DNA of 37,285 bases from assembly GCA_049323975.1 (NCBI GenBank), contig JBMOMY010000019.1, positions 1 to 37,285 of the forward strand, in the 5' to 3' direction. Positions 10,278 to 35,054 of the stretch are shown here, one piece after another. A program made the position numbers and the translations under genes. The stretch is from Pseudomonadota bacterium. Lineage in GTDB: Bacteria > Pseudomonadota > Alphaproteobacteria > UBA11222. Position 1 is the first letter of the stretch, and every line of letters begins with the position of its first letter. Under the pieces are notes generated by a model. It was not told the DNA's origin. It was given only the letters and a program-made list of their open reading frames with translations, and did no database searches.

Positions 10278-11045
10278 TTAACGACTTGGCGCTACAGGGG
10301 CGGCGTCCCAGTCTCCGCACAGAGCCTGCCATAAGGTCAAGGCGGCGATGGCAGCCGTGTCGGCGCGCAGGATGCGTGGCCCAAGGGATACCGGCGCTAC
10401 CTGCGGCAGCGCCAGCAGGCGCGATCTCTCGGCGGGACTGAAGCCCCCCTCTGGCCCGCACAGGACGGCCCAGGCGGCGTTACGCGCGGTGGTATGTTGC
10501 AATTGGCAAAGTGCTGGCCTGCCTGCGCCGGACTCATCGCAGAACATGATGCGCCTTTCCTGTGACCAGTTTTCCAGCGTCACATTCAGTTTCTCTGGCG
10601 CGTGCAGCATGGGTACGCTCAGCAGTCCGCATTGCTCCGCCGCCTCTATGGCGATTGCGTTAAGGCGTTCCAGGTTGACATGGGGCGCGCTGGTGTATTC
10701 AGTGATGACCGGGTGAATTTCACGCACCCCGAGTTCCGTCGCCTTCTCCACGATGATTTCCAGACGCGTCCGTTTCACCGCTGCGCAGAGCAGCCACAGA
10801 TCGGGCGTTACGGTCTGCGCTCTTATCTTATCGTTGAGGCGTATCCGGGCGTCATGTTTCCCGAGGGCCAGAATGCTGGCGCGCCATTCGCCATCCGCCC
10901 CATTGAACAGACCGATTTCATCTCCAACCTCCCGGCGCATCACGTTGCGCAGATAATGCGCCTGCGGCTGGGGCAGACGGATTTCCACGTCCTCAACAAG
11001 GGGCGCGTCGACAAATAGTCGGATATGTTCACGGGATGCGCGCAT
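10278..11045 (-). CDS. rsmE: 16S rRNA (uracil1498-N3)-methyltransferase
   Basis: The C-terminal 255 aa of the 596-aa track ORF, starting at MRASREHIRLFVD (ATG 11043-11045), show the RsmE pattern (…HYLRNVMR…, …IVEKATELGV…, …GPEGGFSPAE…PVSLGPRILRADTAA). The upstream 341 codons are antisense to ubiA and are not credible. Confidence 0.9.
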   Translation of the reverse strand: MRASREHIRLFVDAPLVEDVEIRLPQPQAHYLRNVMRREVGDEIGLFNGADGEWRASILALGKHDARIRLNDKIRAQTVTPDLWLLCAAVKRTRLEIIVEKATELGVREIHPVITEYTSAPHVNLERLNAIAIEAAEQCGLLSVPMLHAPEKLNVTLENWSQERRIMFCDESGAGRPALCQLQHTTARNAAWAVLCGPEGGFSPAERSRLLALPQVAPVSLGPRILRADTAAIAALTLWQALCGDWDAAPVAPSR

Positions 11046-11081
11046 TGGAACCGGCTTCCGGTCTGTGTTAGTTCTGTGCTG

Positions 11082-11999
11082 ATGACCGAACATAAAGTCA
11101 AACCGCAAGGCGGCGCAATCGCCGATGCGCCCGGCAATTGGGTGGACCGTCTGGCCCCCATGCCCATGCGTCCCTTTCTGCGGCTTGCGAGGATGGACCG
11201 CCCGATCGGCGCCTGGCTGTTGCTGTGGCCCTGCTGGTGGAGCCTGGCGCTGGCGGCGGGCGATTGGCGGCTGGGGATTTTGTTCGCGCTCGGCGCGGTG
11301 GTGATGCGCGGCGCGGGCTGCACCTTCAACGACATTGCAGACCGGGATCTGGATGGGCGTGTGGCGCGCACTGCGAACCGCCCCCTGCCCAGCGGCGCGG
11401 TCAGCCTGTCTGCGGCCTGGACGTTTCTTTTGCTGCAATGCGGGATCGGTTTGCTGATCTTGCTGCAATTCAACCGGTTCGCCATCCTGCTGGGCCTGGC
11501 GTCGCTGGCGCCCGTCGCCATCTATCCATTCATGAAACGCATTACCTATTGGCCGCAACTCTTTCTTGGTATTGCGTTTAACTGGGGCGCTCTGCTCGGT
11601 TGGGCTGCGGTTGCGGGCGGGTTGGCCCTGCCCGCCATCCTGCTCTATCTGGGCGGCGTCTTCTGGACGCTGGGCTATGACACTATCTATGCGCTGCAGG
11701 ACAGGGAGGACGATGCGCTGATCGGCGTGAAATCCACGGCGCTGAAATTCGGGGCGCATGTAAGGGGCGCGGTCGCGGCGTTCTACTGTGCGGCGCTGGT
11801 CCTGTTCGCCGCGGCGGCCTGGTCTGCGGAAGTGGGAGCGTGGTTCTGGGCGGCCTTCGCCCCGGCGGTCGCGCATCTGGGCTGGCAGGCGCGCGCCCTT
11901 GAAATTGACAATCCGGACAGATGTCTGGCGGTTTTCAGGGCCAACCGGGAGTTTGGGCTGCTGATGTTTCTGGCGATCATTGTGGGCAAGGTCTGGTAA
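11082..11999 (+). CDS. ubiA: 4-hydroxybenzoate polyprenyltransferase
   Basis: UbiA prenyltransferase motifs NDIADRDLDGRVARTANRPLPSG and YALQDREDD, with multiple TM segments. The start is taken at MTEHKV (ATG 11082), not the track start at 11025. Confidence 0.92.
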   Translation: MTEHKVKPQGGAIADAPGNWVDRLAPMPMRPFLRLARMDRPIGAWLLLWPCWWSLALAAGDWRLGILFALGAVVMRGAGCTFNDIADRDLDGRVARTANRPLPSGAVSLSAAWTFLLLQCGIGLLILLQFNRFAILLGLASLAPVAIYPFMKRITYWPQLFLGIAFNWGALLGWAAVAGGLALPAILLYLGGVFWTLGYDTIYALQDREDDALIGVKSTALKFGAHVRGAVAAFYCAALVLFAAAAWSAEVGAWFWAAFAPAVAHLGWQARALEIDNPDRCLAVFRANREFGLLMFLAIIVGKVW

Positions 12000-12094
12000 G
12001 AAGCCCATACAAATGGGGCGTTGCATGGTACATTGGGCTTGATAAACGGGACGTGGTATGGTACACATGACCGGTCGTGGCGATTTGGTTTGAT

Positions 12095-18610: not shown

Positions 18611-19388
18611 ACCCTTTGCCTCCGAACACCGTCTCAGCATCAGCGCCGCGCGCGAAGCAGGCGAACTTGTGATGAAATATTTTGGCGGGGATTACGCCAG
18701 ATGGGACAAGGGCGGGAACAATCCGGTGACAGAGGCTGATCTGGCGGCTGACCGCCTGCTGCGTGACCGGCTCTCTTCGTTCGATCCGGAATATGGCTGG
18801 CTTTCTGAGGAAACAGAAGATGACAGCAGCAGGCGTTCCGCCCGCCGGTCCTGGGTTGTCGATCCGATCGACGGCACCCGCGCCTTCATTCGGGGCCAGC
18901 CCCATTTCGCCATCAGTATCGCTCTTGTAGAAGAGGCGCGGCCGGTTTGCGCGGTCGTGTTCAACCCTGCCACGAACGAATTGTTCGACGCCGTGGCGGA
19001 AGGTCCCGCGCGGCTTAACGGCGAGGTGATTACCGTTAGCGGTAAAAACGCGTTGCAGGATGCGCGGATACTGGCGTCGAAAGGAGTGTTCGAGCAGAAA
19101 CGCTGGAAATCGCCCTGGCCGGTAATGCATGTGGAAGCCCGCAATTCCATTGCGTATAAAGGCGGCCTCATCGCGGCGGGTATCTTCGATGGCTGTCTGC
19201 TGTTTTCGGGCGCTTATGACTGGGATCTGGCGGCGGCGGACCTGATTGTCCGCGCGGCCGGGGGCTGCATGACCGATCATTCAGGCCAGCGCCTGCGCTT
19301 CAATCAGCAGGCGCCGCGTCAGAAAAACATGGTCGCCGCGGGGCCGGAACTGCACGCCCTGCTGCTGGAGCGGCTGTCATGGGGGTGA
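18597..19388 (+). CDS. Inositol monophosphatase family protein (CysQ/SuhB-like phosphatase)
   Basis: IMPase motifs WVVDPIDGTRAF and WDLAAADLIV. The TTG start overlaps the pmbA stop; GTG 18603 is an alternative. Confidence 0.85.
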   Translation: MPVSEPFASEHRLSISAAREAGELVMKYFGGDYARWDKGGNNPVTEADLAADRLLRDRLSSFDPEYGWLSEETEDDSSRRSARRSWVVDPIDGTRAFIRGQPHFAISIALVEEARPVCAVVFNPATNELFDAVAEGPARLNGEVITVSGKNALQDARILASKGVFEQKRWKSPWPVMHVEARNSIAYKGGLIAAGIFDGCLLFSGAYDWDLAAADLIVRAAGGCMTDHSGQRLRFNQQAPRQKNMVAAGPELHALLLERLSWG

Positions 19389-21343
19389 GCGGCCATCTTG
19401 CGGGCGCGCCGAAGCTTTTTACGCGCTTCTCGCTCTGGCTCGTCAATCTGCCCCGGGCCGCCAAGCTTACGATTTGCGTGATATTTGACGCCGCGCCGGT
19501 GCTGGCGATCAGCCTGGCGGGGGTATATGGCTATGAATTGCTGTGCCAGTGCGTCATCCGGGAGACGGTCCGCTACGCCGCTGCCATGGCGCTGGGGCTC
19601 GTGACGCTTGGGGTGTTTGTCCTCACCGGCCTGTACAGACCCATGCTGCGTTATCGCGATCCGCTGATCATTTTTCCGGTTCTGGTTTCCACGGCCTCTG
19701 CGGCGGGGCTGATAGCGCTGGGGGCTTCCGTATTCAGTCAATTGCCCCATATTCTTCCCATGACCGGTCTGTTATGGCTGGGGCTGGTGGGGCTGATGCT
19801 GGTCTGGCGGCTCACCGGCGGGGCGGTGCTGAATTTGACGGCGCGGCAGGGCGCGCCGGAGGCTTCCCAGGTGGCGATCTACGGCGCCGGCCGCGCGGGC
19901 GTGGCGCTGGCCGAAGCCATGGCGAAGGACGATACGCTGAACGTCGTCTGTTTCGTCGATGATGACAGCCAGTTGCAGGGACGCACCGTGCAGGGAATCA
20001 AGGTGCGGCATGCGGGCGCCCTGCGCCGGCTGGCCGGGCAGGGGCGGCTCGATCTCGTGGTGCTCGCCCTGCCTTCGGCAAGCCCGGCGCGGCGTGCGGC
20101 GATCATCAATCAGCTAGCCGAACTGCAGGTGAAGGTGGAGACCGCCCCCAGTCTTGAGGAAATCATTTCCGGCTGGCGGCGGGTGAGTGATATCCGCGCC
20201 GTCAGTCCCGAAGAACTGCTATCGCGTGAGCCTGTCGCGCCTGATCTCGCCCTGCTGGAGCAGGAACTACGCGGCCGCGCGGTCATGGTGACGGGGGGTG
20301 GCGGCTCCATTGGCTCCGCAATCGCCAGGGCGGTGATCGCCCATGCGCCGTCCAGGCTGATCATATTTGAGATGTCGGAATTCGCGCTTTATTCCATAGA
20401 GCGCGAATTGCGGGAGCAGATCGCGGCGCGCGGCGGCAGAACGCAACTGATCTGCCTGCTGGGTTCGGTGCTGGACGATCCGGGTATAAAGCGCGCCCTG
20501 GCGGCGCACCGTCCTGAAATCATTTACCACGCCGCCGCATATAAGCATGTGCCGCTGGTGGAGTTGAACCCGATTGCGGGCGCAAGCAACAATATCACCG
20601 GCACCCTGAATGTGGCGCGTGCGGCAGAGGTATATGGCGCCAAGAAATTCGTGCTGATATCGACGGACAAGGCCGTGCGGCCCGCCAATGTGATGGGCGC
20701 GGCGAAACGGGTGGCGGAAAAAGTGGTGGAGGCGTTGGGTCAGAGCGGAACCAGAACCGCCTTCGCCATGGTGCGTTTTGGCAATGTGCTGGATTCGGCG
20801 GGATCGGCGGTTCCGCTTTTCCGGGAGCAGATCCGCAATGGCGGGCCGGTGACCGTAACCGACCCAAGGATGGTGCGCTATTTCATGACCATACCGGAGG
20901 CCGCAGATCTCGTCATTCAAGCGGGCGCCATGGCGCAGGGGGATGGCGACATTTTCCATCTCGACATGGGTGAGCCCGTCAATGTCGCCGATCTGGCCCG
21001 CAAACTGATCCATCTGTCGGGTTTTTCCGTGCGGGAGCCAGGCGTTCCGGGGGATATCGAGATCCAGTTCACCGGACTGCGCCCCGGTGAGAAACTTTTC
21101 GAGGAGCTGCTGGTGGATGGAAAGAGCGCACCCACCGTCCATCCCCGGATTTTCCGGGCGTCTTCTGTGGGCGCACGATGGGAAGCGCTCTCCCCCTATC
21201 TTGAACGGCTTGAGAGGATTTTCGCCAATCAGGATGTGGAAGGGTTGAGCGGCGTTCTGGGGGAACTGGTGGAATCCTATTGCGGGCAGCGCGCACCGCA
21301 GGCCGGGCCGAGCAGGCCGGGGCTCGTGGAGGAAAGCGCTTGA
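19379..21343 (+). CDS. Membrane-bound nucleotide-sugar 4,6-dehydratase (CapD/WbpM/PglF family polysaccharide biosynthesis protein)
   Basis: 654 aa. N-terminal TM segments, then a Rossmann motif VTGGGGSIGS and SDR catalytic YKHVP…STDKAV. This is the typical WbpM/PglF architecture. Confidence 0.9.
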   Translation: MGVSGHLAGAPKLFTRFSLWLVNLPRAAKLTICVIFDAAPVLAISLAGVYGYELLCQCVIRETVRYAAAMALGLVTLGVFVLTGLYRPMLRYRDPLIIFPVLVSTASAAGLIALGASVFSQLPHILPMTGLLWLGLVGLMLVWRLTGGAVLNLTARQGAPEASQVAIYGAGRAGVALAEAMAKDDTLNVVCFVDDDSQLQGRTVQGIKVRHAGALRRLAGQGRLDLVVLALPSASPARRAAIINQLAELQVKVETAPSLEEIISGWRRVSDIRAVSPEELLSREPVAPDLALLEQELRGRAVMVTGGGGSIGSAIARAVIAHAPSRLIIFEMSEFALYSIERELREQIAARGGRTQLICLLGSVLDDPGIKRALAAHRPEIIYHAAAYKHVPLVELNPIAGASNNITGTLNVARAAEVYGAKKFVLISTDKAVRPANVMGAAKRVAEKVVEALGQSGTRTAFAMVRFGNVLDSAGSAVPLFREQIRNGGPVTVTDPRMVRYFMTIPEAADLVIQAGAMAQGDGDIFHLDMGEPVNVADLARKLIHLSGFSVREPGVPGDIEIQFTGLRPGEKLFEELLVDGKSAPTVHPRIFRASSVGARWEALSPYLERLERIFANQDVEGLSGVLGELVESYCGQRAPQAGPSRPGLVEESA

Positions 21344-22437
21344 GCTTCCCTTTCGCCACAGGCGCCGCCCTCGGCCCCTTTGCGGCGCTGAGCCATTTTT
21401 TCTTTCTGCTGATGATTGCTGCATTTTCGGCCGCCCTGACCTGGGTCATGATCCGTCTGAATATTTCCGACGTGCCGAACGCGCGCTCTTCCCATGTGCG
21501 GCCAACGCCCAAAAGCGGCGGGGTTGCGATTGCGGCGGCGTTTTTCTCTGGCCTCGCCGTGTTATATCTGCATAGCGGCACGGCGCGGCTGCCATCCGGG
21601 CAATTCACCTGGTTTCTTGCAACCTCCGGGCTGATGTTCGGGGCGGCCTTCTGGGACGATCTCGCCGGGTTGCGCGCCGGGGTCAAATTCGCCACGCAGT
21701 TTGTCTGCGCCGCGCTGTTCAGTTTCTTCGTCGCCCATATCGATGTGCTTGCGTTTCCCCTGTTAGGGGAAGTGTCCCTGGGCGTCATTGGGCACGCCAT
21801 GACGGTTCTGTGGATCATCTTCTTCATGAATGCGTTCAATTTCATGGACGGCATTAACGGGCTGGCGGGGGGCGGAGCGCTGATCGCCACCGCCTTTCTC
21901 GGGGGGATCGCCTTTTTTGCCGGCGCGCATTTCGTCTATCTGGGCGCTCTGTGCCTGTTCGGGGCGGTGCTGGGCTTTTTTGTCTTCAATTTTCCCCATG
22001 GCCGCATCTTCATGGGGGATACAGGCAGCCAGATCATCGGTTTCGTGTTTTCAGGACTGGCGGTGATCGGCGCGCGGGCCGATATCGGCCAGGTGTCAGT
22101 CATGGTCGCGCCCGCGCTGTTCGCCTGCTTCCTGTTCGATGTGCTGGCGACGCTCTGTTACCGGCTGTGGCGCAGACAGCGGCTTTCCGAGGGGCACCGG
22201 GAGCATCTCTATCAGATCAGCAACCTGCTTGGCTTTTCGCACCAGAGGGTCAGTTATATTTATTTTGGCCTGCTGCTTCTGAATGGCGTCTTCGCGGCCG
22301 CGCTGCAGGCGGCGCAACCCTCGGCGCGCCTGCCTTTGCTGCTGGGCGGAATTCTGTTACACGCGCCCCTCGGCTTACTGGTTTATGGGGCTGGGCTTCG
22401 TCAGGGCGTCGTCCATTTCCCGTCGGACAAGGGATGA
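21340..22437 (+). CDS. Glycosyltransferase family 4 polyprenyl-phosphate HexNAc-1-phosphate transferase (WbpL/WecA/MraY superfamily)
   Basis: Polytopic membrane protein with NAFNFMDGINGLAGG and FMGDTGSQ motifs. The proposed TTG start at 21340 overlaps the upstream TGA (TTGA) and follows GGAGGA (21326-21331). The track start at 21280 is less likely. Confidence 0.85.
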   Translation: MSFPFATGAALGPFAALSHFFFLLMIAAFSAALTWVMIRLNISDVPNARSSHVRPTPKSGGVAIAAAFFSGLAVLYLHSGTARLPSGQFTWFLATSGLMFGAAFWDDLAGLRAGVKFATQFVCAALFSFFVAHIDVLAFPLLGEVSLGVIGHAMTVLWIIFFMNAFNFMDGINGLAGGGALIATAFLGGIAFFAGAHFVYLGALCLFGAVLGFFVFNFPHGRIFMGDTGSQIIGFVFSGLAVIGARADIGQVSVMVAPALFACFLFDVLATLCYRLWRRQRLSEGHREHLYQISNLLGFSHQRVSYIYFGLLLLNGVFAAALQAAQPSARLPLLLGGILLHAPLGLLVYGAGLRQGVVHFPSDKG

Positions 22438-27199: not shown

Positions 27200-27706
27200 C
27201 TATAATTTGGCGGGCAGGGAAAAAAGCGCGCCCTCCATGTCAAACACCCCCGGCCCGATTTCCTCCACCGCCTCGATCATGCGGCCCTGGCGTGACATCA
27301 GCTTGTCCGCCAGCGCCACCAGAAGCCTGTTGGGTTGCGCATGCCGGGCGCGGGCGCGCAGCAGCCGGGCGGCCTGGAATTCATCCACCTCATTCAGATG
27401 ACAGAGCGCGATATAGGCTGCGGCGGTTGAGCGGCTGATCCCCGCCCAGCAGTGGATGAGCATAGGGGCGTTCCGGTCCCAGCTATCCAGAAAGGTCAGC
27501 AATTCCCTGATATGCGCTTCCGCCGGAACGGTCAGGCCCTCACGCGGGGTGGTGATATCGTTAATGGACAACCGAAGGTGGCGCTCGCTTTTCAACACTC
27601 GTGGCGTGTCAATCATGGAATGGGGATCCAGAAGCGAAACCAGATGCGACGGAGAATGCCTGTCGATTGCGGAATATAGCTGGCTTAGGGGGCAGATATA
27701 AAGCAT
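27200..27706 (-). CDS. Cys-based phosphatase, protein-tyrosine/dual-specificity phosphatase-like (COG5350-like)
   Basis: CX5R P-loop LIHCWAGISRSTAAAY. The start MLYICPLSQL (ATG 27704-27706) overlaps the upstream TGA (ATGA). 168 aa. Confidence 0.8.
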   Translation of the reverse strand: MLYICPLSQLYSAIDRHSPSHLVSLLDPHSMIDTPRVLKSERHLRLSINDITTPREGLTVPAEAHIRELLTFLDSWDRNAPMLIHCWAGISRSTAAAYIALCHLNEVDEFQAARLLRARARHAQPNRLLVALADKLMSRQGRMIEAVEEIGPGVFDMEGALFSLPAKL

Positions 27707-28329
27707 CAGGGGGCTCTTTGCGTAGCCAGCGCATTGAAGCGCCGCAGAAACGCGCGCTTTGCTTGGGCCGGGGATAACAGACGGATTTCCGGGCAACTGA
27801 GATTGCGGGGACGTTGAAAGATTTTTCCGGCCTCTTCCAGAGAAAAGCCCGCCAGGTGAACAGCTTCGAAATAGGCGCTGGCGCGGTCAGCGCGTTTGAT
27901 GTCCGCTGCGACGCCAGCGGGCAGGAGCGCGGGCAATCCGAAACGAAGACGGATGGCGCGGTCCAGCCTGAGCTCCATGCTTTTGTAATCCGTGCCGGCA
28001 GCGGCCTTGAACGGGCTGATCAGATCGCCAACCACATATTCCGCCGCATCGTGCAGTAACGCCGCCAGGCGCCAGCGGTTCCCGGCGCGGGGTTGCGCGC
28101 ATTCATAAAGCGATACAACCAGAAGCGAGTGCTGGGCCACACTGAAGGGCCAGACGCCGCGGGTCTGGCCATTCCATCGCGCGACTCTGGATAAACCATG
28201 TGCAATGTCTTCGATTTCCACATCCAGCGGGGACGGATCAAGTAGATCTAGTCGGCGCCCGCTCAGCATACGCTGCCAGGCCCTTGGAGTAGACAGATAA
28301 TTATCCTTTTTTTCGCCAGTTTTAACCAT
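27706..28329 (-). CDS. HD domain-containing phosphohydrolase (YfbR/COG1896-like)
   Basis: …VAQHSLLV… and …ALLHDAAEYVVGDLISPFK… form the HD metal-binding signature. 207 aa. Confidence 0.82.
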   Translation of the reverse strand: MVKTGEKKDNYLSTPRAWQRMLSGRRLDLLDPSPLDVEIEDIAHGLSRVARWNGQTRGVWPFSVAQHSLLVVSLYECAQPRAGNRWRLAALLHDAAEYVVGDLISPFKAAAGTDYKSMELRLDRAIRLRFGLPALLPAGVAADIKRADRASAYFEAVHLAGFSLEEAGKIFQRPRNLSCPEIRLLSPAQAKRAFLRRFNALATQRAP

Positions 28330-28469
28330 GATTTTGCCAACAACAAGCTAAATATATCTAAATTAAATTAATCATCTTTAATCTATACGTAATGTTTAAA
28401 AGATTGTGTCAAAATTTGGGCAAAAAATTATGATATTATTGGGTATTTCTACTTATTGAAAACCTCAGA

Positions 28470-29102
28470 ATGCTTCTTACCTCCTTTTACATGGGAGGTA
28501 ATATTTTGGATCAAAACAAAATCATTACTCAAGTTTTCACCTACTGGCGTTCCATGTGTATGGAAGACAGACTGCCTTCGCGCGCGGATATCATTCCGGC
28601 GGATATAAAAGAGTTATTACCGTTTCTGCTGCTCGCCGATGTGGGCAAATTAACGGCAACGGGCGCCGAGATCAATTTGCGTTTGACTGGCACTCATATT
28701 GACCGGGTGTTGGAAGTTGATCTGACGGGCTGTCCCATAGGCGGATTTGACAGGAACTGGCTGGATTTCGTGATCGGCCGCGATTTTCTCGAAGCTGCGG
28801 AGCAACGCAGCGCAATCATGAGCATTCATGAATTAAGGCTTACGGAAAAACCCTATCCGAAGGCAATCATGCGCCCTGGCGACAAGGCGCATTTGCGTTA
28901 TCAGCGCCTGATTCTGCCATTATCGACGGATGGACAAAGGGTGGATATGCTTTTGGGCGCCCTGGTGGCGGATATTCACGTGGATGCAACCTACCTGTGG
29001 CGCAACCAATATTCTTTCAAGGAGCTTTCGAAGCAGCGCCTGCCGGTTCCCTATTCCCTGTCATGCCCGCAGCTACAGGAGCGCGCTGTCAAAGCGGTAT
29101 AG
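28470..29102 (+). CDS. PAS_5 (DUF1457) family PAS domain protein
   Basis: …FTYWRSMCMEDRLPSRADIIPADIKELLPFLLLADV… matches the N-terminal signature I associate with the alphaproteobacterial PAS_5 family. The 5' end is AT-rich. An alternative ATG is at 28491. Confidence 0.68.
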   Translation: MLLTSFYMGGNILDQNKIITQVFTYWRSMCMEDRLPSRADIIPADIKELLPFLLLADVGKLTATGAEINLRLTGTHIDRVLEVDLTGCPIGGFDRNWLDFVIGRDFLEAAEQRSAIMSIHELRLTEKPYPKAIMRPGDKAHLRYQRLILPLSTDGQRVDMLLGALVADIHVDATYLWRNQYSFKELSKQRLPVPYSLSCPQLQERAVKAV

Positions 29103-29562
29103 GAGCGCCTGGCTCCTGCTTGGAGATGCGGATGGTGAGCGAGGTCTTTACGCTGGCCACATTGGGCGCCGGGGTCAGTTTGTTCGTCAGGAAATTCTGA
29201 AATTCGGTAAGGTCATGCGCCACGCATTTCAGGATAAAATCGATCTCTCCGTTCAGCATATGACATTCCCGCACGACAGGCCAGCCGGCGACCATCCGCT
29301 CAAAGGCGACCAGATCCGTCTCGGCCTGGCTTCGTAGGGAAACCATGACGAATACGGTCACCTCATAACCCAGCGCGCGGGGATCGATGTCCGCGTGATA
29401 GCCGCGAATGAAGCCTGCTTCTTCCAGTGCGCGGACCCGGCGCAGACAGGGCGGCGCCGAAATTCCTGCTCTGGACGCCAGTTGGATATTGGTTATTCTT
29501 CCATTGGCTTGCAGTTCGTGCAGGATCTTGCGGTCGATTTCGTCTAGCTTTACCCTTTGCAT
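29089..29562 (-). CDS. Lrp/AsnC family transcriptional regulator
   Basis: MQRVKLDEIDRKILHELQANGRITNIQLASRAGISAPPCLRRVRALEEAGFIRGY… followed by a RAM/AsnC_trans_reg domain. The start is taken at ATG 29560-29562 (157 aa). Confidence 0.9.
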   Translation of the reverse strand: MQRVKLDEIDRKILHELQANGRITNIQLASRAGISAPPCLRRVRALEEAGFIRGYHADIDPRALGYEVTVFVMVSLRSQAETDLVAFERMVAGWPVVRECHMLNGEIDFILKCVAHDLTEFQNFLTNKLTPAPNVASVKTSLTIRISKQEPGAPIPL

Positions 29563-29658
29563 GGCTGCTGAATTCCGGGACTTAGGATGTATGTATGGGG
29601 TATTATTATTATAATATCCGGCAATTAGATAACCCATATCGAACCCTGTCCAGAATCA

Positions 29659-30663
29659 ATGAATAGCGTCCAGACGCCATTATCGCCCCCCCAAACCGCC
29701 TGCTGGATTGTGACTGATGGCAATGCGGGTATGGAAAATCAATGTCTTGGACTTGCAGAGGCGCTGGGCGTGAGACCTATTGTGAAACGCATCAGACTGC
29801 GCGCGCCCTGGAACTGGCTGCCGCCAAGACTGGGGGCGTTGGGGAATCCGCTGCGGCGCCTGGATCCTGCTGGCGACGCCCTTGACCCTCCCTGGCCGGA
29901 ACTGCTGATCGCCACCGGACGCAAGACAGTCGCGGTAACGGCCGCCATCCGGCGCATCAGCAACAAGACCGTCGCTGTGCAAATTCAAAATCCGCATTTT
30001 CCCTCAAGCGCGTTCGATCTGATCGTTGCGCCCCGGCATGACGGGTTGAATGGCGGCAATATCATCTGCACAGCGGGCGCGTTGCATCGCGTGACGCGGG
30101 TGCGTCTGGATAAAGCTGCGGAAGAATTTCGCGCGGGTCTGGCGCACTTGCCGCGGCCGCTTTTTGCGGTGCTGATCGGGGGGCCCAACAAGGTCTACCG
30201 CATGAATCCTTCAGTGATAGAGAGGTTGTGCGCCGGGTTGCGCCATCTGACATCGGTTGCGCGATGCAGTTTTGCCGTGACGCCTTCGCGCCGCACCGGG
30301 GAGGCGAATATCACAGCGCTGCGTCAAGGTCTGAAAGAAGTTCCGCATATCCTCTGGGAAGGACAAGGCGCCAACCCCTATTTCGGTTTTCTTGGGCTTG
30401 CGGATGCAGTGGTTGTCACTGCCGATTCCGTGAACATGATCAGTGAGGCCGCCGCCACGGGCAAGCCGGTCTTTGTGTTTGATCTGCCTGGAGGATCGGC
30501 AAAATTCAGGGCCTTTCATGCCGGGATGCGGGAAAGCGGCGCGGTACGCCCTTTCGTTCCGGATGAAATTTTGCCGCTCGAATCATGGACGCCGCCGGAA
30601 ATTGATGATACGGCCATGGTGGTCAGAGCCGTGCGGCGTTTACTCATTATTCGAAACCATTAG
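29659..30663 (+). CDS. ELM1/DUF1022 family protein (predicted GT-B-like fold; function unknown in bacteria)
   Basis: 334 aa. …WIVTDGNAGMENQCLGLAEALG… and …VTADSVNMISEAAATGKPV… match my recollection of the ELM1/DUF1022 (COG3660) family. Confidence 0.78.
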   Translation: MNSVQTPLSPPQTACWIVTDGNAGMENQCLGLAEALGVRPIVKRIRLRAPWNWLPPRLGALGNPLRRLDPAGDALDPPWPELLIATGRKTVAVTAAIRRISNKTVAVQIQNPHFPSSAFDLIVAPRHDGLNGGNIICTAGALHRVTRVRLDKAAEEFRAGLAHLPRPLFAVLIGGPNKVYRMNPSVIERLCAGLRHLTSVARCSFAVTPSRRTGEANITALRQGLKEVPHILWEGQGANPYFGFLGLADAVVVTADSVNMISEAAATGKPVFVFDLPGGSAKFRAFHAGMRESGAVRPFVPDEILPLESWTPPEIDDTAMVVRAVRRLLIIRNH

Positions 30664-30678
30664 GGATGCTGCGGACGC

Positions 30679-31305
30679 ATGCTTGATTTTGAGGCATTGA
30701 AGGCGGCCCCTCTGCGGCAGGATCCCTTTCCTTACCTGTGTGTGACGGGCTTTCTGGGCGCGCTGTCGCTTGGCGAAGTCAACAGGGATTTTCCCGAAGT
30801 GCCGGGGCCGGGTTCCTACCCGCCTGACCGCCTTGATGTGCATGGCGGTTTCGCCAGATTGCTGGCGGAGTTGAATGGAGCGGAATTTCAATCGGTAATG
30901 TCCCAGAAATTCGGCCTCGATCTTTCAGCCTTTCCCACTATGTTTACAGTGCGCGGATATTGCCGTGCGGCTGACGGGCAGATCCATTGCGATAGCGAAA
31001 GCAAGATTATCACTGTCCTGCTGTATCTGAATCCCGCCTGGGAAAAGGAAGGCGGGCGGCTGCGCCTGCTGCGCGGGCCGAATGACCTTAATGACATGGT
31101 CTGTGAAGTGCCGCCCAATGGCGGAACCCTGTTGGCCTTCCGCCGCTCTGATCATAGCTGGCACGGGCACGAACCCTATGAGGGACAGCGCCGCGCCATT
31201 CAGATGAACTGGGTCCAGAACCGTGGCGTCGTCTGGCGTGAGCAATGGCGCCACCGCCTGTCGGCGGGAGTCAAGCGGCTCATCCCTTCCAGCCAGGAGG
31301 AATGA
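30679..31305 (+). CDS. 2OG-Fe(II) oxygenase superfamily protein
   Basis: 208 aa. HxD (IHCDSE) and distal His (HSWHGH) with the RxxxQ-like 2OG-binding end (RRAIQMNW). It lies 15 nt after the ELM1-like gene. Confidence 0.8.
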   Translation: MLDFEALKAAPLRQDPFPYLCVTGFLGALSLGEVNRDFPEVPGPGSYPPDRLDVHGGFARLLAELNGAEFQSVMSQKFGLDLSAFPTMFTVRGYCRAADGQIHCDSESKIITVLLYLNPAWEKEGGRLRLLRGPNDLNDMVCEVPPNGGTLLAFRRSDHSWHGHEPYEGQRRAIQMNWVQNRGVVWREQWRHRLSAGVKRLIPSSQEE

Positions 31306-33278
31306 TGGCGTTAAGTCTCGAAACCTTTTCCAATGCCGATATGAAAGGCGGATGGCGGCCTGGCAATAATGCCGGCGGCCATTCGCTGTTCAAGGCGCTG
31401 GGGCATCCCATGGCCGCGCAACGCGGTCAGGCGCTGTATGACGCCTGCCGGCTTAACGGACCGTTGGCGCTCTATGATCCGCGGGGAACGGCTGTCGCCT
31501 TTGATGCGCTTTTCGGGATTTCCCGCTGTGACATCCGGGAAATTTTCGTCCAAAGGGTGGAGGACCAGGGACGCGAGATATTGGGCCGCCCCGCGAAACT
31601 TCTGACGGAATTGCCGCGCTCGGCCGCAAGAACGTTGCTGGTGCTGGCCTTTGACGCGGAGCGCCTGATCGCGCAATTCAGCCCGCTGCTGCCGGAAGGA
31701 ATGATTGTTCGGTCGCTGGATGACATGCGTATTGATGAGAATATGCTGGCCAATCGCGCCGATTACACGGATCCCATGAATTTCGCCACCAATTTTGCGC
31801 TGTTTCGCGACGCAGCCGGAAAGGATGGCGCAGAGGGGCTGCACACTGTGCTGACCACGGCCAATTACTGGGCGCTGAATGGGGCGGAAGAGCCCGCTCT
31901 GTGGCTGTGTCTGTTCAGCGCTGCAGGAGACGTGTTGGCGGAATGGCGCGAAGCTCTGCCCCAGCCGGGCGCATTGCTGCGCATCGACAGCCGCGAAGTG
32001 CGTGCGCGCTTCGGTCTGGGCGATTTTTGCGGATCCCTTTTCATTCATGCGCTGCGGCCGGCAAAGCACGACATCGTGAAATATGCGCTGGATGTTTATG
32101 GGGCGGATGGCCGCGCATTTTCCTGCACCCATGACGCCAATGCCTGGCCGGCGGATTTTTATGCGGGCATGCCCGCGCCGGAACAGGGCGAGCGGGTCAT
32201 TCTCCACATTCAGAACAGCCACCCCACGCCTATTCCTGCGGGGGCGGTTGGATTTGGCGTCATAGGCGGGCAGGACGTATCCCGACTCGATAAGGAAATT
32301 CCGCCATTTGGGGTTCACTCATTGGATATTGCGGAAGTCCTGCCCCAGGCGCGCTGGCCCGAGCAGATCGAGATTCACGCAGGGCGTTATTTCGTGCGTC
32401 CACGCTATGAAGTTCTGCGCCCTGATGGCCGCCGCCGCATCGCCCATGCAAATGTGGAGCGCACGGATCTGCGCGCCGACGCCAATATCCCGTCGCTTTC
32501 CCTCAGCATGGGAAAGGGATATGTCATGCCGCTGCCGGTGCCGCCGCTGAAGGAGTTCGCCTCGCTGCTGCTGCCGACCCCTATGGCGCGTGACCAGCGC
32601 GAATTACCGCTTCGCATCGAGCTTTATGACGCGGATGGTGAAAAGGCGGCCGGGCGCTATCTTGGCCGTATTCAGCGCAGGGACAGCATGGCGCTCGAGA
32701 TAGATGGCTGGCTGCGCGACGCCGGAGCGGTTCTTAAATCGGGTTTCGGGCACGCGGAATTCATGTATGATTTCCAGGATGGAGGTGAGGCGGACGGCTG
32801 GCTCCATGCGCTCGGGAAATATACCCTTCGCGCCAGCGGGCATATGGCGGAAACCATTTTCGGCGCGCATATCTACAATACGCCGGTGATTTACAAGGAC
32901 GAGCCGCAATCCTATACCGGCGCGCCGCCCGGACTTACCACACGGCTCTTCCTGCGGCTGGGGCAAAATCTGGGCAGGGGAGCCGATGCGCTGTGCCACC
33001 TGATCTATCCCGCCTCCTTACCCTGGCGTGAGAAATCCAGTACACGGATCATTCTGCACGACGGCGGCGGAGTCCCCGTTGCGGAGAAGCAGGTTAGCAT
33101 AGCCTGCGGCGGAAGCCTGTTCTGGCGTTACGCGAAAATGTTCGACGCCGGCGAAAGGAACGCGGCTGGCAAGGACGCCTATATCATTGTTCGGGACGCG
33201 ACCTGCCGGCTTTTCGGGTTTCACGGGCTGATTCTGGATGGTGAATGCTTTAGCCTGGATCACATGTTCGGATTTTAG
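31302..33278 (+). CDS. Hypothetical protein, 658 aa, no family recognised
   Basis: Long ORF with coding-like composition. The ATG at 31302 (ATGATG) overlaps the oxygenase TGA and follows AGGAGG (31295-31300). No signal peptide or TM segment is evident. Confidence 0.75.
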   Translation: MMALSLETFSNADMKGGWRPGNNAGGHSLFKALGHPMAAQRGQALYDACRLNGPLALYDPRGTAVAFDALFGISRCDIREIFVQRVEDQGREILGRPAKLLTELPRSAARTLLVLAFDAERLIAQFSPLLPEGMIVRSLDDMRIDENMLANRADYTDPMNFATNFALFRDAAGKDGAEGLHTVLTTANYWALNGAEEPALWLCLFSAAGDVLAEWREALPQPGALLRIDSREVRARFGLGDFCGSLFIHALRPAKHDIVKYALDVYGADGRAFSCTHDANAWPADFYAGMPAPEQGERVILHIQNSHPTPIPAGAVGFGVIGGQDVSRLDKEIPPFGVHSLDIAEVLPQARWPEQIEIHAGRYFVRPRYEVLRPDGRRRIAHANVERTDLRADANIPSLSLSMGKGYVMPLPVPPLKEFASLLLPTPMARDQRELPLRIELYDADGEKAAGRYLGRIQRRDSMALEIDGWLRDAGAVLKSGFGHAEFMYDFQDGGEADGWLHALGKYTLRASGHMAETIFGAHIYNTPVIYKDEPQSYTGAPPGLTTRLFLRLGQNLGRGADALCHLIYPASLPWREKSSTRIILHDGGGVPVAEKQVSIACGGSLFWRYAKMFDAGERNAAGKDAYIIVRDATCRLFGFHGLILDGECFSLDHMFGF

Positions 33279-33329
33279 GGTTAGACTGGCGGCTTGCCTG
33301 GGAATTGATATCGAAAACAGGATGGGAGC

Positions 33330-33965
33330 GTGGCTGAAAAACTGAAACGCATACGCCGGACCCCGGAAGAGGCCCGGCGGGTGATACTGGATGCGGCTGA
33401 ACGCCGTCTGTCAGAACTTGGACCGGAAGGCATCCGACTGCAGGAAATCGCCGCGGATGTGGGTATTTCCCATCCAACTATCCTGCATCATTTCGACAGC
33501 CGCGAAGGGCTGGTGCTGGCGCTTACCCAGCGCGCGACAGATCAGCTGCGGGCGGATCTTCTTGCGGCTTTCACCACGCCTCAGACCAGTGATGCGGATA
33601 TTCACCGTATTCTGGACCGGGTGTTTGACGTGCTGAGCCGGCGGGGCCATGCAAGACTCCTTGGCTGGATGATCCTCAGCGGCATTGCCGGCAGGCAGAC
33701 AAGCCCCGGTCTGCTCAAGGAACTGACCGATCTGATTCATGGCCTGCGCAGCGAGGAGTGCCGGGCGCGCAACCTGCCTGTTCCAGAGCGCGAGGATACC
33801 CTGTTCATGGTGATGCTGGGGGCGATTACGGCGTTTGGCGATGGCCTGTTTGGCCCTCTGGTGCGCCGGGCTATCGGGGCCGGGGATGACAAGACCCTGC
33901 CAGACCGGTTCCGCGCCTGGTTCGCCAGATTATTACGAAGCCAGATATTCCCGCCGCCGGAATAA
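33330..33965 (+). CDS. TetR/AcrR family transcriptional regulator
   Basis: N-terminal HTH …EEARRVILDAAERRLSELGPEGIRLQEIAADVGISHPTILHHFDSREGL…. GTG start. Confidence 0.88.
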   Translation: MAEKLKRIRRTPEEARRVILDAAERRLSELGPEGIRLQEIAADVGISHPTILHHFDSREGLVLALTQRATDQLRADLLAAFTTPQTSDADIHRILDRVFDVLSRRGHARLLGWMILSGIAGRQTSPGLLKELTDLIHGLRSEECRARNLPVPEREDTLFMVMLGAITAFGDGLFGPLVRRAIGAGDDKTLPDRFRAWFARLLRSQIFPPPE

Positions 33966-34028
33966 CCGCTGGGGCTGCTTTGTCGGAGAGCTGATATTTT
34001 CTGACTGGATGTTTTTAAACAGAAAGAC

Positions 34029-34430
34029 CTACGGGCGGAAAGGATTTGTGATGCGCAGCCGCCCCCCGAGCAGAGCGCCATCCTGCATATCTTCCGTCCA
34101 CAGAATATCGCACGAGGCCTGCAAAGCCGCAGCCGCGATCATGGCGTCACAGATGGAAAGAGTGTGCCTCTCGGCCAGGGCAAGCCCGCCTTCATGGGTT
34201 TTAATTGTCAGCGGCTCCACCCGCAGCAGCCCGCGCACCAGGGACAGAAACCCGTGCGTTTCGTCCCAGGACAATTGCATCTTGCGCCGCGCCACATTGG
34301 CGATTTCGTTGAGAACCTGCACGCTGATCACGCCGCCGGAGGCGATCAGACTTTCCACCCGTTCGGCCTTTTCCGCATCGGACCCGGCAAGATACAAAAG
34401 AATGTTGGTGTCAAAAAAACTATCGGGCAT
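34029..34430 (-). CDS. vapC: PIN-domain toxin VapC (type II TA)
   Basis: 133 aa. MPDSFFDTNILLY… (first acidic residue), …VQVLNEI…, …SICDAMIAAAA…, …LWTEDMQ… give the PIN acidic quartet pattern. Confidence 0.88.
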   Translation of the reverse strand: MPDSFFDTNILLYLAGSDAEKAERVESLIASGGVISVQVLNEIANVARRKMQLSWDETHGFLSLVRGLLRVEPLTIKTHEGGLALAERHTLSICDAMIAAAALQASCDILWTEDMQDGALLGGRLRITNPFRP

Positions 34431-34450
34431 TCTGAATTATCTGTAGTCCC

Positions 34451-34663
34451 CTACCGGGCATTCGCCTCTTCCCGGTCGAACCGGAAATCGGCGGGAAGGC
34501 GGCCACGATAGGCGCGCAGGCGGCTCAGAAGTTCCTGCGGGCCGGGTTTGCGCGACACCCCAAACGTGCGGGCGTCTGCAACGTGAATTTCAATATCATC
34601 GCCCTCTTTCAGGCCCAGCGCCTTGACCACCTCCGCGGGCAGCCGTACCGCCAGACTATTGCT
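34451..34663 (-). pseudogene. vapB: MazE/AbrB(SpoVT)-type VapB antitoxin remnant lacking its first ~9 codons and any upstream start codon
   Basis: My own translation of the - strand gives SNSLAVRLPAEVVKALGLKEGDDIEIHVADARTFGVSRKPGPQELLSRLRAYRGRLPADFRFDREEANAR, ending at TAG 34451-34453, 20 nt upstream of vapC. In this frame an upstream TAA lies at 34712-34714, and no ATG/GTG/TTG occurs until GTG 34630. Confidence 0.65.
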
Positions 34664-35054
34664 GCGAGGGCAGCGTCGGGTGGGCCGGCGGCAGTCCGGT
34701 ATTTTGCGGACTTAGGAAGAACAGCGGCTCCTCCAGCCCCAGGGGCTGATGGTACTGATAGCGCCCGGTGATCAGCGCCAGACGGGTTGGTGAACATACT
34801 GCCGAATTGGCGTAGGCCTGCATGAATTTCATGCCGTCCCGCGCCAGACTGTCGATATGCGGCGTCGTGAAATCGCGCTGGCCATAGCAGGAAACATCCG
34901 CATAGCCAAGATCATCGGCCATGATGAAAACGATGTTTGGTCTGCCGGGTTTGGCTAGGGCCATGCGTGGGCCGCCAGAACCCGCAAGCGCGAGGGCGCC
35001 CGCCGCCGCGCCCTTCACGAAATGACGGCGATTTATCAAACTGTTGCCTGCCAT
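34656..35054 (-). pseudogene. Truncated arylsulfatase-family gene (N-terminal ~130 aa only, with Tat signal)
   Basis: Twin-arginine signal NRRHFVKGAAAGALALAG. Sulfatase motifs NIVFIMADDLGYADVSCYG and the CxPxR-type site SAVCSPTRLALITGRY, then …GLPPAHPTLPS and a stop. Full-length family members are several-fold longer. Confidence 0.75.

What the first reader, a model, noticed from the sequence alone, without database searches (positions are those of the whole stretch)
29659..33278. Tightly packed operon of three uncharacterised proteins: ELM1/DUF1022-like, small 2OG-Fe(II) oxygenase, 658-aa orphan
Three co-directional ORFs are packed as one unit. The gap between the ELM1-like gene and the oxygenase is 15 nt. 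The 658-aa ORF starts at an ATG that overlaps the oxygenase stop (ATGA at 31302-31305), directly behind AGGAGG. I cannot assign the large protein to any family. I know of no experimentally defined bacterial role for ELM1/DUF1022 proteins. The oxygenase has an intact HxD...H triad, so it is probably active. None of the three shows a signal peptide or TM segment, so a cytoplasmic pathway is implied. Regulators bracket the unit: a divergent Lrp/AsnC gene 96 nt upstream and a TetR gene 51 nt downstream. This is the most plausible location for an undescribed system in the window.
Basis: partly seen in the sequence, partly recalled or inferred. Interest (0 to 1): 0.7.

Follow-up and report, generated by a model that had tools for sequence, protein, structure and literature searches.

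The report
Conserved ELM1-oxygenase-unknown protein envelope operon
Three tightly packed genes form a real gene cluster that is widespread in Alphaproteobacteria: a sugar-transferase-like ELM1 protein, a small iron/2-oxoglutarate hydroxylase, and a 657-aa protein with no recognisable family or fold, and their neighbours in other genomes suggest an undescribed step in building or decorating lipopolysaccharide.

Summary

Two points of the interpretation need correcting.

- The large protein (here "BIG") is not an orphan. It has at least 4,817 homologues, in at least 579 species genomes. It still has no Pfam, NCBIfam or PDB match and no global fold match, despite a confident model (pLDDT 85).
- TetR is an accidental neighbour. 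Relatives carry a Coq4 gene between BIG and TetR.

Gene-neighbourhood results:

- ELM1 lies upstream of BIG in 64 of 73 informative genome loci and is present in 40 of 45 informative metagenome loci.
- This holds even for BIGs only 35-40% identical to the window's.
- The oxygenase is facultative, present in 43 of the 73 genome loci.
- ELM1-oxygenase pairs also exist without BIG.
- The order OG-BIG-ELM1 also occurs.

ELM1 models as a GT-B fold enzyme. In other lineages the ELM1-BIG pair sits next to LPS genes: Kdo transferase WaaA, a heptosyltransferase, GT4, and WaaL/LpxL. In many alphaproteobacterial loci it flanks a double PAP2 (LpxE-like) phosphatase and an ArnT-like transferase.

Best reading: a cytoplasmic LPS core/lipid A module with a new enzyme family (confidence about 0.5). 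The biochemistry is untested.

The parts
29659..30663 (+). ELM1-like protein (334 aa): GT-B fold, probable nucleotide-sugar glycosyltransferase and hub of the module
   Evidence: PF06258 at E=1.9e-103. AF2 model pLDDT 93. Foldseek probability 1.0 to GT-B enzymes: UDP-GlcNAc 2-epimerases, MGD1, MurG, TreT and glycogen synthase. Basic pI of 10.0; 41 of 51 orthologues have pI above 9. PF06258 belongs to Pfam clan CL0113 (PMC10327509).
30679..31305 (+). Small Fe(II)/2-oxoglutarate oxygenase (208 aa), prolyl-4-hydroxylase-like; facultative member of the module
   Evidence: PF13640 at 45.9 bits against a cutoff of 27. H103, H162 and R171 are invariant and D105 is conserved in at least 90%. PDB sequence hits 9blq_A at 8e-13 and 9ei6_A at 2e-7. 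Lies between ELM1 and BIG in 43 of 73 genome loci.
31295..31300 (+). AGGAGG Shine-Dalgarno sequence inside the end of the oxygenase gene
   Evidence: Read directly from the sequence. It is 1 nt from ATG 31302 and 4 nt from ATG 31305.
31302..33278 (+). BIG: 658-aa (probably 657-aa, starting at 31305) soluble protein of an unannotated conserved family. It has a small alpha/beta N-terminal domain followed by several beta-sandwich domains
   Evidence: No hit in Pfam, NCBIfam, PADLOC, PHROGs or PDB sequences. At least 4,817 homologues. AF2 pLDDT 85 and pTM 0.88. No global fold match. Family-wide invariant His, Arg, Asp and Asn residues.
29089..29562 (-). Lrp/AsnC-family regulator, divergent from the operon. 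It is a conserved neighbour and a possible regulator
   Evidence: PF13412 and PF01037. Divergent Lrp is present in 55 of 73 genome loci and in most metagenome loci.
29563..29658 (.). AT-rich divergent promoter region. It carries a palindrome-like element (consensus GTAATATTATTAC in relatives) and a TATAAC-like box
   Evidence: Alignment with five close relatives. Inverted repeats at 29594-29638.
33330..33965 (+). TetR-family regulator. It is adjacent and possibly read through from the operon, but it is not a conserved partner
   Evidence: PF00440. Found only in the window's own clade, where a Coq4 gene separates it from BIG. A terminator-like site appears only after it, at 33982-34005.

Best explanation
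The three genes are one co-translated operon. It encodes a cytoplasmic module that works on an envelope glycolipid, most likely the Kdo-lipid A/inner-core stage of lipopolysaccharide.

- **ELM1-like protein.** It is a basic, peripheral GT-B glycosyltransferase that transfers a sugar from a nucleotide sugar. The fold is shown here; the activity is inferred.
- **BIG.** It belongs to a new protein family that almost never occurs without ELM1. It is inferred to be an ELM1-dependent partner enzyme acting on the same substrate. It has many invariant His, Arg, Asp and Asn residues and beta-sandwich domains. These are taken to fit a site that binds an anionic sugar or phosphate, perhaps with a metal.
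- **Oxygenase.** The P4H-like Fe(II)/2OG oxygenase is an optional tailoring hydroxylase. This would be functionally analogous to Kdo 3-hydroxylase KdoO (established knowledge of that enzyme, not tested here), but the protein is not a member of that family.
- **Lrp.** It shares the divergent promoter region and may control the operon.
For: **Operon.** The gaps are 15 nt and a 1-4 nt overlap, with no internal terminator-like site. Across other loci the median gaps are 24 nt (ELM1 to OG) and 23 nt (OG to BIG).

**Functional linkage.**
- ELM1 lies co-directionally within 1.2 kb upstream of BIG in 64 of 73 genome loci. It is present in 40 of 45 informative metagenome loci.
- It is retained next to BIGs that are only 35-40% identical to the window's: L084, L092, L093, L094.
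- All sub-combinations occur: ELM1-OG without BIG, ELM1-BIG without OG, a paralogous oxygenase OG2 next to BIG without ELM1 (L060), and the permuted order OG-BIG-ELM1 (L147, L165).

**LPS link.**
- WaaA-ELM1-BIG in L056 and L066, and WaaA-BIG in L068.
- ilvE-zfCHCC-ELM1-BIG-GT4-GT9 heptosyltransferase in L050.
- glnE-(ilvE)-zfCHCC-ELM1-ELM1-OG-BIG-GT4 in L074 and L138.
- LpxL, GT2, WaaL and GT4 beside ELM1-BIG in L093.
- A tandem-PAP2 membrane phosphatase lies near BIG in 32 of 80 metagenome loci, and in 17 loci it sits between ELM1 and BIG. It has the KxxxxxxRP/PSGH/SRxxxxxHxxxD motifs and weak PDB hits that include LpxE 6ebu.
- An ArnT-like GT-C lies near BIG in 17 of 80 metagenome loci. Its best PDB hit is ArnT 5ezm at E=0.002.
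- Elm1-family proteins are predicted glycosyltransferases in the A. baumannii LOS outer-core locus (PMC4172580, PMC10327509).

**ELM1 properties.** GT-B fold and a conserved basic pI.
Against: - There is no biochemical or genetic evidence for any of the three proteins.
- In the window itself no LPS core gene is adjacent. The nearest sugar genes are Polysacc_synt_2 and Glycos_transf_4 at 19379-22437.
- In most alphaproteobacterial loci the flanks are housekeeping genes (greA, lrp, trxB). Inherited synteny may therefore inflate the adjacency counts, and the loci are not phylogenetically independent.
- BIG shows no detectable similarity to any carbohydrate-active enzyme.
- PAP2 and ArnT-type enzymes act at the periplasmic face of the membrane, whereas the trio is cytoplasmic.
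- The top structural neighbours of ELM1 include UDP-GlcNAc 2-epimerases. An epimerase-type activity is therefore not excluded.
Confidence: 0.5

Rival explanations
1. Protein hydroxylation followed by glycosylation. The P4H-like oxygenase hydroxylates a residue of a cytoplasmic protein, possibly BIG itself, and the ELM1-like GT-B glycosylates it. This would resemble the Skp1 PhyA/Gnt1 pathway or EarP acting on EF-P (recalled knowledge of those pathways).
For: - The oxygenase's nearest solved relatives are labelled prolyl-4-hydroxylase-like, and there are weak hits to HIF/EF-Tu prolyl hydroxylases.
- ELM1-OG is a widely conserved pair located beside translation and transcription genes such as greA and tyrS.
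- BIG has invariant segments that are modelled as disordered.
- A 9-aa insert, WRPGNNAGG, is present in 45 of 50 OG-containing loci against 18 of 41 OG-less loci.
Against: - The insert correlation is phylogenetically confounded and has exceptions in both directions.
- The insert is absent from distant family members.
- OG is missing from about 40% of ELM1-BIG loci.
- The recurrent neighbours are LPS and lipid A enzymes, not protein-modification factors.
- EarP-type or other protein glycosyltransferases are not among the top 50 structural neighbours of ELM1.
Confidence: 0.12
2. Cytoplasmic small-molecule sugar metabolism. ELM1 acts as a synthase of a soluble glycoside or compatible solute, or as a nucleotide-sugar epimerase. 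Phosphatases and BIG then process the product.
For: - Top structural neighbours of ELM1 include UDP-GlcNAc 2-epimerases, the trehalose synthase TreT and glycogen synthase.
- Occasional neighbours are a glycerate kinase (L087), a HAD phosphatase (L090) and a CX5R phosphatase-like protein (Azospirillum and the window's clade).
Against: - Each of these neighbours is sporadic, seen in one to a few lineages.
- No transporter or osmoregulatory gene recurs.
- The recurrent neighbours are membrane-lipid and LPS enzymes.
- The basic pI of ELM1 fits a membrane-surface enzyme.
Confidence: 0.13
3. Synteny without shared function. The genes are independent housekeeping genes kept together only by inheritance of an old alphaproteobacterial gene order (carAB-greA-lrp-...-trxB).
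For: - The same backbone surrounds the genes in most loci.
- ELM1 occurs alone next to greA in L089.
- BIG occurs without ELM1 in Ferrovibrio and in L083.
Against: - The ELM1-BIG pair is kept in quite different contexts outside that backbone, namely the waaA, glnE/ilvE and mnmC neighbourhoods.
- It survives a change of gene order, OG-BIG-ELM1.
- Start/stop overlaps recur.
Confidence: 0.1

Closest known systems
Elm1-family predicted glycosyltransferases GtrOC1/14/19/22 of the Acinetobacter baumannii LOS outer-core locus (PMC4172580, PMC10327509)
   Same: They share the Pfam family PF06258 (clan CL0113, GT-B). They are soluble proteins encoded in an LPS/LOS core locus flanked by ilvE. The ELM1-BIG pair has the same position in L050 and L138.
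   Different: No BIG homologue or P4H-like oxygenase is described as a partner in that locus. The A. baumannii proteins are themselves uncharacterised biochemically. The window's ELM1 lies in a greA/lrp/trxB-type alphaproteobacterial lineage, not in an outer-core locus.
Arabidopsis ELM1 (mitochondrial fission factor that names PF06258; recalled knowledge)
   Same: The Pfam family is the same, and the window protein matches the full-length model (residues 23-328 against model positions 1-303 of 304).
   Different: The plant protein is described as a recruiter of dynamin-related protein at the mitochondrial outer membrane, not as an enzyme. The bacterial context here points to glycolipid biosynthesis.
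Prolyl-4-hydroxylase-type 2OG oxygenases (PF13640; PDB 9blq 'putative hydroxylase', 9ei6 'P4H alpha subunit domain protein', PPHD 4iw3). Functional analogue in LPS: Kdo 3-hydroxylase KdoO
   Same: It has the HxD...H triad plus the 2OG-binding Arg, scores above the Pfam threshold, and is a small soluble enzyme.
   Different: The substrate is unknown. It did not hit the KdoO family in the Pfam scan. It is only 208 aa and has no extra domain.
Lipid A head-group remodelling enzymes LpxE/LpxF (PAP2 phosphatases) with ArnT/RgtD-type GT-C transferases (Rhizobium, Cupriavidus; recalled knowledge plus PDB 6ebu and 5ezm)
   Same: Homologous-looking genes are inserted between ELM1 and BIG in many alphaproteobacterial loci.
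   Different: These genes are absent from the window. They are integral membrane enzymes acting at the periplasmic face, whereas the trio is soluble and cytoplasmic. They support the functional context only.
Skp1 prolyl hydroxylation/glycosylation pathway (PhyA + Gnt1) of Dictyostelium and Toxoplasma (recalled knowledge)
   Same: A P4H-type oxygenase is genetically paired with a cytoplasmic glycosyltransferase.
   Different: No target protein is identified here. The oxygenase is dispensable in many loci, and the neighbours point to LPS.

Membership tests
PF06258 Mito_fiss_Elm1 / GT-B superfamily | Full-length match to the family HMM above the gathering score | tested here: met
   346.2 bits against a cutoff of 27; residues 23-328 match model positions 1-303 of 304.
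PF06258 Mito_fiss_Elm1 / GT-B superfamily | Two Rossmann-like domains (GT-B fold) | tested here: met
   AF2 pLDDT 93. Foldseek probability 1.0 and TM about 0.5 to MurG, MGD1, UDP-GlcNAc 2-epimerases and TreT.
PF06258 Mito_fiss_Elm1 / GT-B superfamily | Nucleotide-sugar-dependent glycosyl transfer | not testable with these tools
   Conserved SRRT and DSxxMxSE motifs fit a nucleotide-sugar site, but there is no assay. No family member has a solved structure.
2OG-Fe(II) oxygenase, P4H-like (PF13640) | HMM match above the gathering score | tested here: met
   45.9 bits against a cutoff of 27.
2OG-Fe(II) oxygenase, P4H-like (PF13640) | HxD...H iron triad and a basic residue that binds 2OG | tested here: met
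   H103, H162 and R171 are invariant and D105 is conserved in at least 90% of 40 sequences.
2OG-Fe(II) oxygenase, P4H-like (PF13640) | Prolyl (or other defined) substrate | not testable with these tools
   Only the depositors' labels of the nearest PDB relatives are available. Literature look-ups for 9BLQ and 9EI6 failed.
Any described protein family, for the 658-aa protein | Significant sequence or profile match to Pfam, NCBIfam, PADLOC, PHROGs or PDB | tested here: not met
   No hit for the protein, for 53 homologues scanned singly, or for the family profile.
Any described protein family, for the 658-aa protein | Global structural match to a solved or viral predicted structure | tested here: not met
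   Best Foldseek E is about 5e-5 with TM about 0.1 and rmsd above 18 Å. The matches are only generic beta-sandwich arrays. AlphaFold DB was not available.
LPS core / lipid A biosynthesis locus | Co-localisation with hallmark genes (waaA, heptosyltransferase, waaL, lpxL, lipid A phosphatase, ArnT-like) | tested here: inconclusive
   Met in related loci: L050, L056, L066, L068, L074, L093, L094, L138, plus 32 metagenome loci with PAP2x2 and 17 with ArnT-like. Not met in the window itself.
LPS core / lipid A biosynthesis locus | Altered LPS when the genes are mutated | not testable with these tools
   This needs genetics and mass spectrometry.
Single operon | Co-directional genes, short gaps or overlaps, no internal terminator, and spacing conserved in relatives | tested here: met
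Single operon | One transcript spanning both junctions | not testable with these tools
   No transcript data are available.
TetR as dedicated regulator of the unit | Conserved adjacency with the regulated genes | tested here: not met
   TetR is seen only in L003, L005, L007 and L008. In L008 a divergent Coq4 gene separates it from BIG, and its spacing in L005 and L007 is the same.

The most novel reading that the evidence does not exclude
BIG founds a new enzyme family with a previously unseen domain arrangement. Together with ELM1-type GT-B proteins it carries out an unassigned, widely conserved step of lipid A/inner-core assembly in Alphaproteobacteria and some Gammaproteobacteria. That bacterial activity would then be the ancestral function of the ELM1 family, which plants later recruited for mitochondrial fission.
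Probability: 0.25. Interest if true: 0.75.

Novelty: new variant of a known kind. Interest (0 to 1): 0.55.

Why it matters
ELM1-family proteins are common in Alphaproteobacteria and in the A. baumannii LOS locus, yet they have no demonstrated bacterial function. This work gives them a constant genetic partner, a 650-aa family that is annotated nowhere. It also gives them a testable functional context at the Kdo-lipid A/core stage of LPS. If that context is confirmed, it would add a new enzyme family and perhaps new chemistry to LPS biosynthesis. That pathway is relevant to envelope integrity, symbiosis and antibiotic targeting. It would also suggest what the bacterial ancestor of the plant mitochondrial fission factor ELM1 did.

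Tried and rejected
- **Defence system or phage origin.** PADLOC returned only a generic 2OG model hit for the oxygenase, and PHROGs returned nothing. Rejected.
- **Plasmid or mobile origin.** BIG is absent from 72,556 plasmids, and GC content matches the rest of the window. Rejected.
- **Riboswitch or other RNA element around the operon.** No Rfam match at E up to 1 in 28000-34600.
- **Internal repeats in BIG.** Profile-profile comparison of its segments gave nothing significant.
- **Known fold for BIG.** Foldseek against PDB and BFVD returned only generic beta-sandwich arrays. A family profile against PDB sequences returned nothing.
- **Solved ELM1-family structure.** None was found by sequence.
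- **TetR as cognate regulator.** Rejected.
- **BIG N-terminal 'WRPGNNAGG' insert as the oxygenase target.** There is a correlation, but it is confounded by phylogeny and has exceptions in both directions. Left as weak.
- **Literature.** Only three of ten paper searches completed. DUF1022 found no paper; PF06258 and Mito_fiss_Elm1 both led to the two A. baumannii OCL papers. An existing description of this cluster therefore cannot be excluded.
- **Pfam cap.** It was exhausted before the PAP2x2 and ArnT-like genes turned up. Those calls rest on motifs and PDB hits.

Full report
**1. Observation**

- The ELM1-oxygenase gap is 15 nt.
- ATGA at 31302-31305 overlaps the oxygenase stop codon, and AGGAGG lies at 31295-31300.
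- That Shine-Dalgarno sequence is only 1 nt from ATG 31302 and 4 nt from a second ATG at 31305. The 99%-identical database protein is 657 aa. The real start is therefore probably 31305, giving a TGATG overlap. Either start implies translational coupling.
- TetR begins 51 nt after BIG.
- The '96 nt' to Lrp holds if Lrp starts at Met26 (29562). Homologue lengths and alignment starts support that.
- No terminator-like site lies within the unit or before TetR. One follows TetR at 33982-34005.
- None of the three proteins has a hydrophobic segment; the highest Kyte-Doolittle 19-residue window is 1.38.

**2. Family assignments**

- The first protein is a full-length PF06258 Mito_fiss_Elm1 member (E=1.9e-103).
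- The second is PF13640 2OG-FeII_Oxy_3. Across 40 homologues H103, H162 and R171 are invariant and D105 is conserved in at least 90%, so an active enzyme is likely.
- Its closest solved relatives by sequence are 9blq_A ('putative hydroxylase', 8e-13) and 9ei6_A ('P4H alpha subunit domain protein', 2e-7).
- The third protein, BIG, has no hit in Pfam, NCBIfam, PADLOC, PHROGs or PDB sequences. This holds whether it is searched singly, as 53 separate homologues, or as a profile.

**3. BIG is not an orphan**

- It has at least 4,817 homologues in the 5.8-billion-protein collection. All named ones are called 'hypothetical protein', and identities are 57-76% across genera such as Parvibaculum, Tepidicaulis, Ferrovibrio and Minwuia.
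- It falls into 565 clusters at 50% identity. Most are fragments; those covering the whole query are about 600-720 aa.
- It is encoded in at least 579 species-representative genomes and at least 536 metagenome stretches.
- It is absent from 72,556 plasmids.

An AlphaFold2 model built on 53 homologues is confident (pLDDT 85, pTM 0.88).

- It shows a small alpha/beta domain at about residues 28-142, followed by an all-beta region at 163-658.
- Two invariant segments (6-26 and 535-546) are modelled with low confidence.
- Foldseek against PDB and BFVD finds only generic beta-sandwich arrays, with TM about 0.1.
- No internal sequence repeats were detected.

In an alignment reaching down to 35% identity, a set of polar residues stays invariant or nearly so (657-aa numbering):

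- N159
- H276-D277-x-N279
- Q354
- R365-x-R367-Y368-E369
- H381/N383/R386/D388
- H522/N525
- E533-P-Q-S-Y537
- R635
- D652-H653, in the conserved C-terminal ...LDHMFGF

By inference this pattern looks like an active or ligand-binding site for an anionic substrate.

**4. ELM1 is a GT-B fold protein**

- The model has pLDDT 93.
- Foldseek gives probability 1.0 matches to UDP-GlcNAc 2-epimerases, MGD1, MurG, TreT and glycogen synthase.
- No ELM1-family structure has been solved.
- Orthologues are typically very basic (median pI 9.6, 41 of 51 above 9), while BIG is acidic. By general knowledge of enzymes such as MurG, a basic pI suits a peripheral membrane enzyme.
- PF06258 belongs to the GT-B clan CL0113.
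- Its only discussed bacterial members are predicted glycosyltransferases in the A. baumannii LOS outer-core locus, and the family is described as having 'no known function in bacteria' (PMC4172580, PMC10327509).

**5. Gene neighbourhood**

Genome loci:
- In 73 informative loci, ELM1 lies co-directionally within 1.2 kb upstream of BIG in 64.
- The oxygenase lies between them in 43.
- A divergent Lrp is present in 55.
- Median gaps are 24 nt (ELM1 to OG), 23 nt (OG to BIG) and 75 nt (ELM1 to BIG when OG is absent).

Metagenome loci:
- In a second, independent sample of 80 loci chosen around a distant family member, 40 of 45 informative loci contain ELM1.
- In 16 of them the oxygenase lies directly upstream of BIG.
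- Two loci have the permuted order OG-BIG-ELM1.

Distant BIGs:
- BIGs only 35-40% identical still have ELM1 directly upstream: L084, L092, L093, L094/L095.

Exceptions:
- Ferrovibrio has Lrp-BIG-TrxB without ELM1.
- L083 and a few others also lack an adjacent ELM1.

The reverse case:
- ELM1-OG pairs with 52-57% identity exist without BIG in Azospirillum, Pseudoxanthobacter and Brevundimonas.
- ELM1 stands alone in L089.

A second oxygenase:
- A paralogous oxygenase, OG2, is about 220 aa, has an HTD...H motif, falls below the Pfam threshold and hits 9ei6 at 5e-5.
- It substitutes or adds in L085, L060 and L090.

So ELM1 is the hub. BIG almost always comes with ELM1. The oxygenase is a facultative third member.

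**6. The regulators**

- TetR occurs only in the window's own clade. In L008 a divergent Coq4-family gene separates it from BIG, and that gene is missing in the window. It is therefore not a cognate regulator.
- Lrp is a conserved neighbour, but it belongs to an old carAB-greA-lrp ... trxB backbone.
- The lrp/ELM1 intergenic region carries a conserved AT-rich palindrome in the window's clade. This is compatible with Lrp control but does not prove it.

**7. Functional context**

Outside the alphaproteobacterial backbone, the ELM1-BIG pair sits in LPS loci:

- WaaA (Kdo transferase)-ELM1-BIG in L056 and L066, and WaaA-BIG in L068.
- ilvE-zfCHCC-ELM1-BIG-GT4-GT9 heptosyltransferase, tightly packed, in L050.
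- glnE-(ilvE)-zfCHCC-ELM1-ELM1-OG-BIG-GT4, followed by sugar-nucleotide genes, in L074 and L138.
- LpxL-type acyltransferase, GT2, WaaL-type ligase and GT4 beside ELM1-BIG in L093 and L094.
- From my own knowledge, glnE-ilvE-waaF-waaC-waaG is the core locus in Pseudomonas aeruginosa. ilvE also flanks the A. baumannii OCL (PMC4172580).

Within alphaproteobacterial metagenome loci, two further genes recur near BIG:

- A tandem-PAP2 membrane protein lies near BIG in 32 of 80 loci, and in 17 loci it sits between ELM1 and BIG. It has two KxxxxxxRP/PSGH/SRxxxxxHxxxD motif sets and weak PDB hits that include LpxE 6ebu.
- An ArnT-like GT-C lies near BIG in 17 of 80 loci. Its best PDB hit is ArnT 5ezm at E=0.002, followed by STT3.

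These are the classic lipid A head-group remodelling activities (established knowledge of LpxE/LpxF and ArnT/RgtD).

**8. Interpretation**

The best-supported reading is a cytoplasmic module acting on Kdo-lipid A/inner core.

- ELM1 would be the glycosyltransferase.
- BIG would be an ELM1-dependent partner enzyme of a new family.
- The oxygenase would be an optional hydroxylase.

What is shown:
- operon architecture
- family and fold assignments
- conservation of the associations
- LPS and lipid A neighbours in related loci

What is inferred:
- substrate
- enzymatic activities
- order of action
- any role for Lrp

Weaknesses:
- There are no experimental data.
- No LPS gene lies directly next to the trio in this window.
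- The adjacency counts are phylogenetically non-independent.
- BIG has no similarity to any known enzyme.
- The PAP2 and ArnT-like calls could not be checked against Pfam.

Rivals are:
- protein hydroxylation-glycosylation (0.12)
- soluble sugar metabolism (0.13)
- mere synteny (0.10)

**9. Verdict**

This is a real, conserved gene cluster of unknown function.

It is best classed as a new variant of a known kind, an LPS/glycoconjugate assembly module, built around an unannotated protein family with no recognisable fold. Interest is moderate to high for envelope biologists and for the origin of the plant ELM1 family.

The literature search was largely blocked by time-outs, so prior description cannot be fully excluded.

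Noticed in passing
window 29563-29658 (core about 29594-29640): The AT-rich lrp/ELM1 divergent intergenic region carries a palindrome-like element (GTAATATTATTAC in relatives) and a TATAAC-like box. Both are conserved among the five closest relatives. It may be an Lrp operator or a shared promoter.
   Followed up: partly
window 33279-33329; L008 7976-8770: In close relatives a Coq4-family gene (PF05019) lies between BIG and TetR, divergent from TetR. It has been deleted in the window, which leaves TetR 51 nt behind BIG and possibly read through from the operon.
   Followed up: yes
window 27200-27796 (-); L085 9562-10143: A CX5R (HCWAGISRS) dual-specificity-phosphatase-like protein lies upstream in the window's clade. 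A homologue sits immediately after the oxygenase in Azospirillum, so it may be a further accessory member. Its ORF overlaps the adjacent HD-domain ORF (27706-28329) by 91 nt, so its TTG start is probably miscalled.
   Followed up: partly
L085 8151-8807, L060 5180-5848, L090 9269-9949: A second family of 2OG oxygenase-like proteins ('OG2') is about 220 aa, has an HTD...H motif, is 22-30% identical to the window oxygenase and falls below the Pfam threshold. It appears next to ELM1 and/or BIG in some lineages.
   Followed up: partly
L050 2543-2704, L074 2870-3058, L093 4626-4835, L094 2381-2593, L138 4853-5014: A small zf-CHCC (PF10276) gene sits next to ELM1 in five loci outside the alphaproteobacterial greA-lrp backbone. 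PF10276 is, from recollection, NDUFS6-like. Separately, a GT-B-like subunit of Tetrahymena complex I (8b6f_A0) ranked fourth among the structural neighbours of ELM1. No explanation.
   Followed up: no
L097-L175 (e.g. L103 4501-5865 and 5841-7334): Many alphaproteobacterial metagenome loci carry a fused double-PAP2 membrane phosphatase between ELM1 and BIG, often with an ArnT-like GT-C on the opposite strand. The fused double PAP2 is itself unusual.
   Followed up: partly
window 31302-31380 (BIG residues 6-26): A 9-aa insert, WRPGNNAGG, lies in the conserved but low-confidence N-terminus of BIG. It is present in 45 of 50 oxygenase-containing loci against 18 of 41 without. The correlation is confounded by phylogeny.
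   Followed up: partly
window 34029-34430 (-) and 34656-35054 (-): There is a PIN-domain (VapC-like) toxin gene and, next to it, a 132-aa N-terminal fragment of a sulfatase. The fragment is probably a pseudogene remnant.
   Followed up: no
window 10278-12068 (-): A 596-aa ORF has its RsmE-type RNA methyltransferase and PUA domains only in the last 230 residues or so. The first 360 or so residues have no Pfam match. Either the start is miscalled or this is a fusion.
   Followed up: no
window 5595-7055 and 7419-8792: Two tandem paralogous DUF1329 (LolA-like) genes.
   Followed up: no
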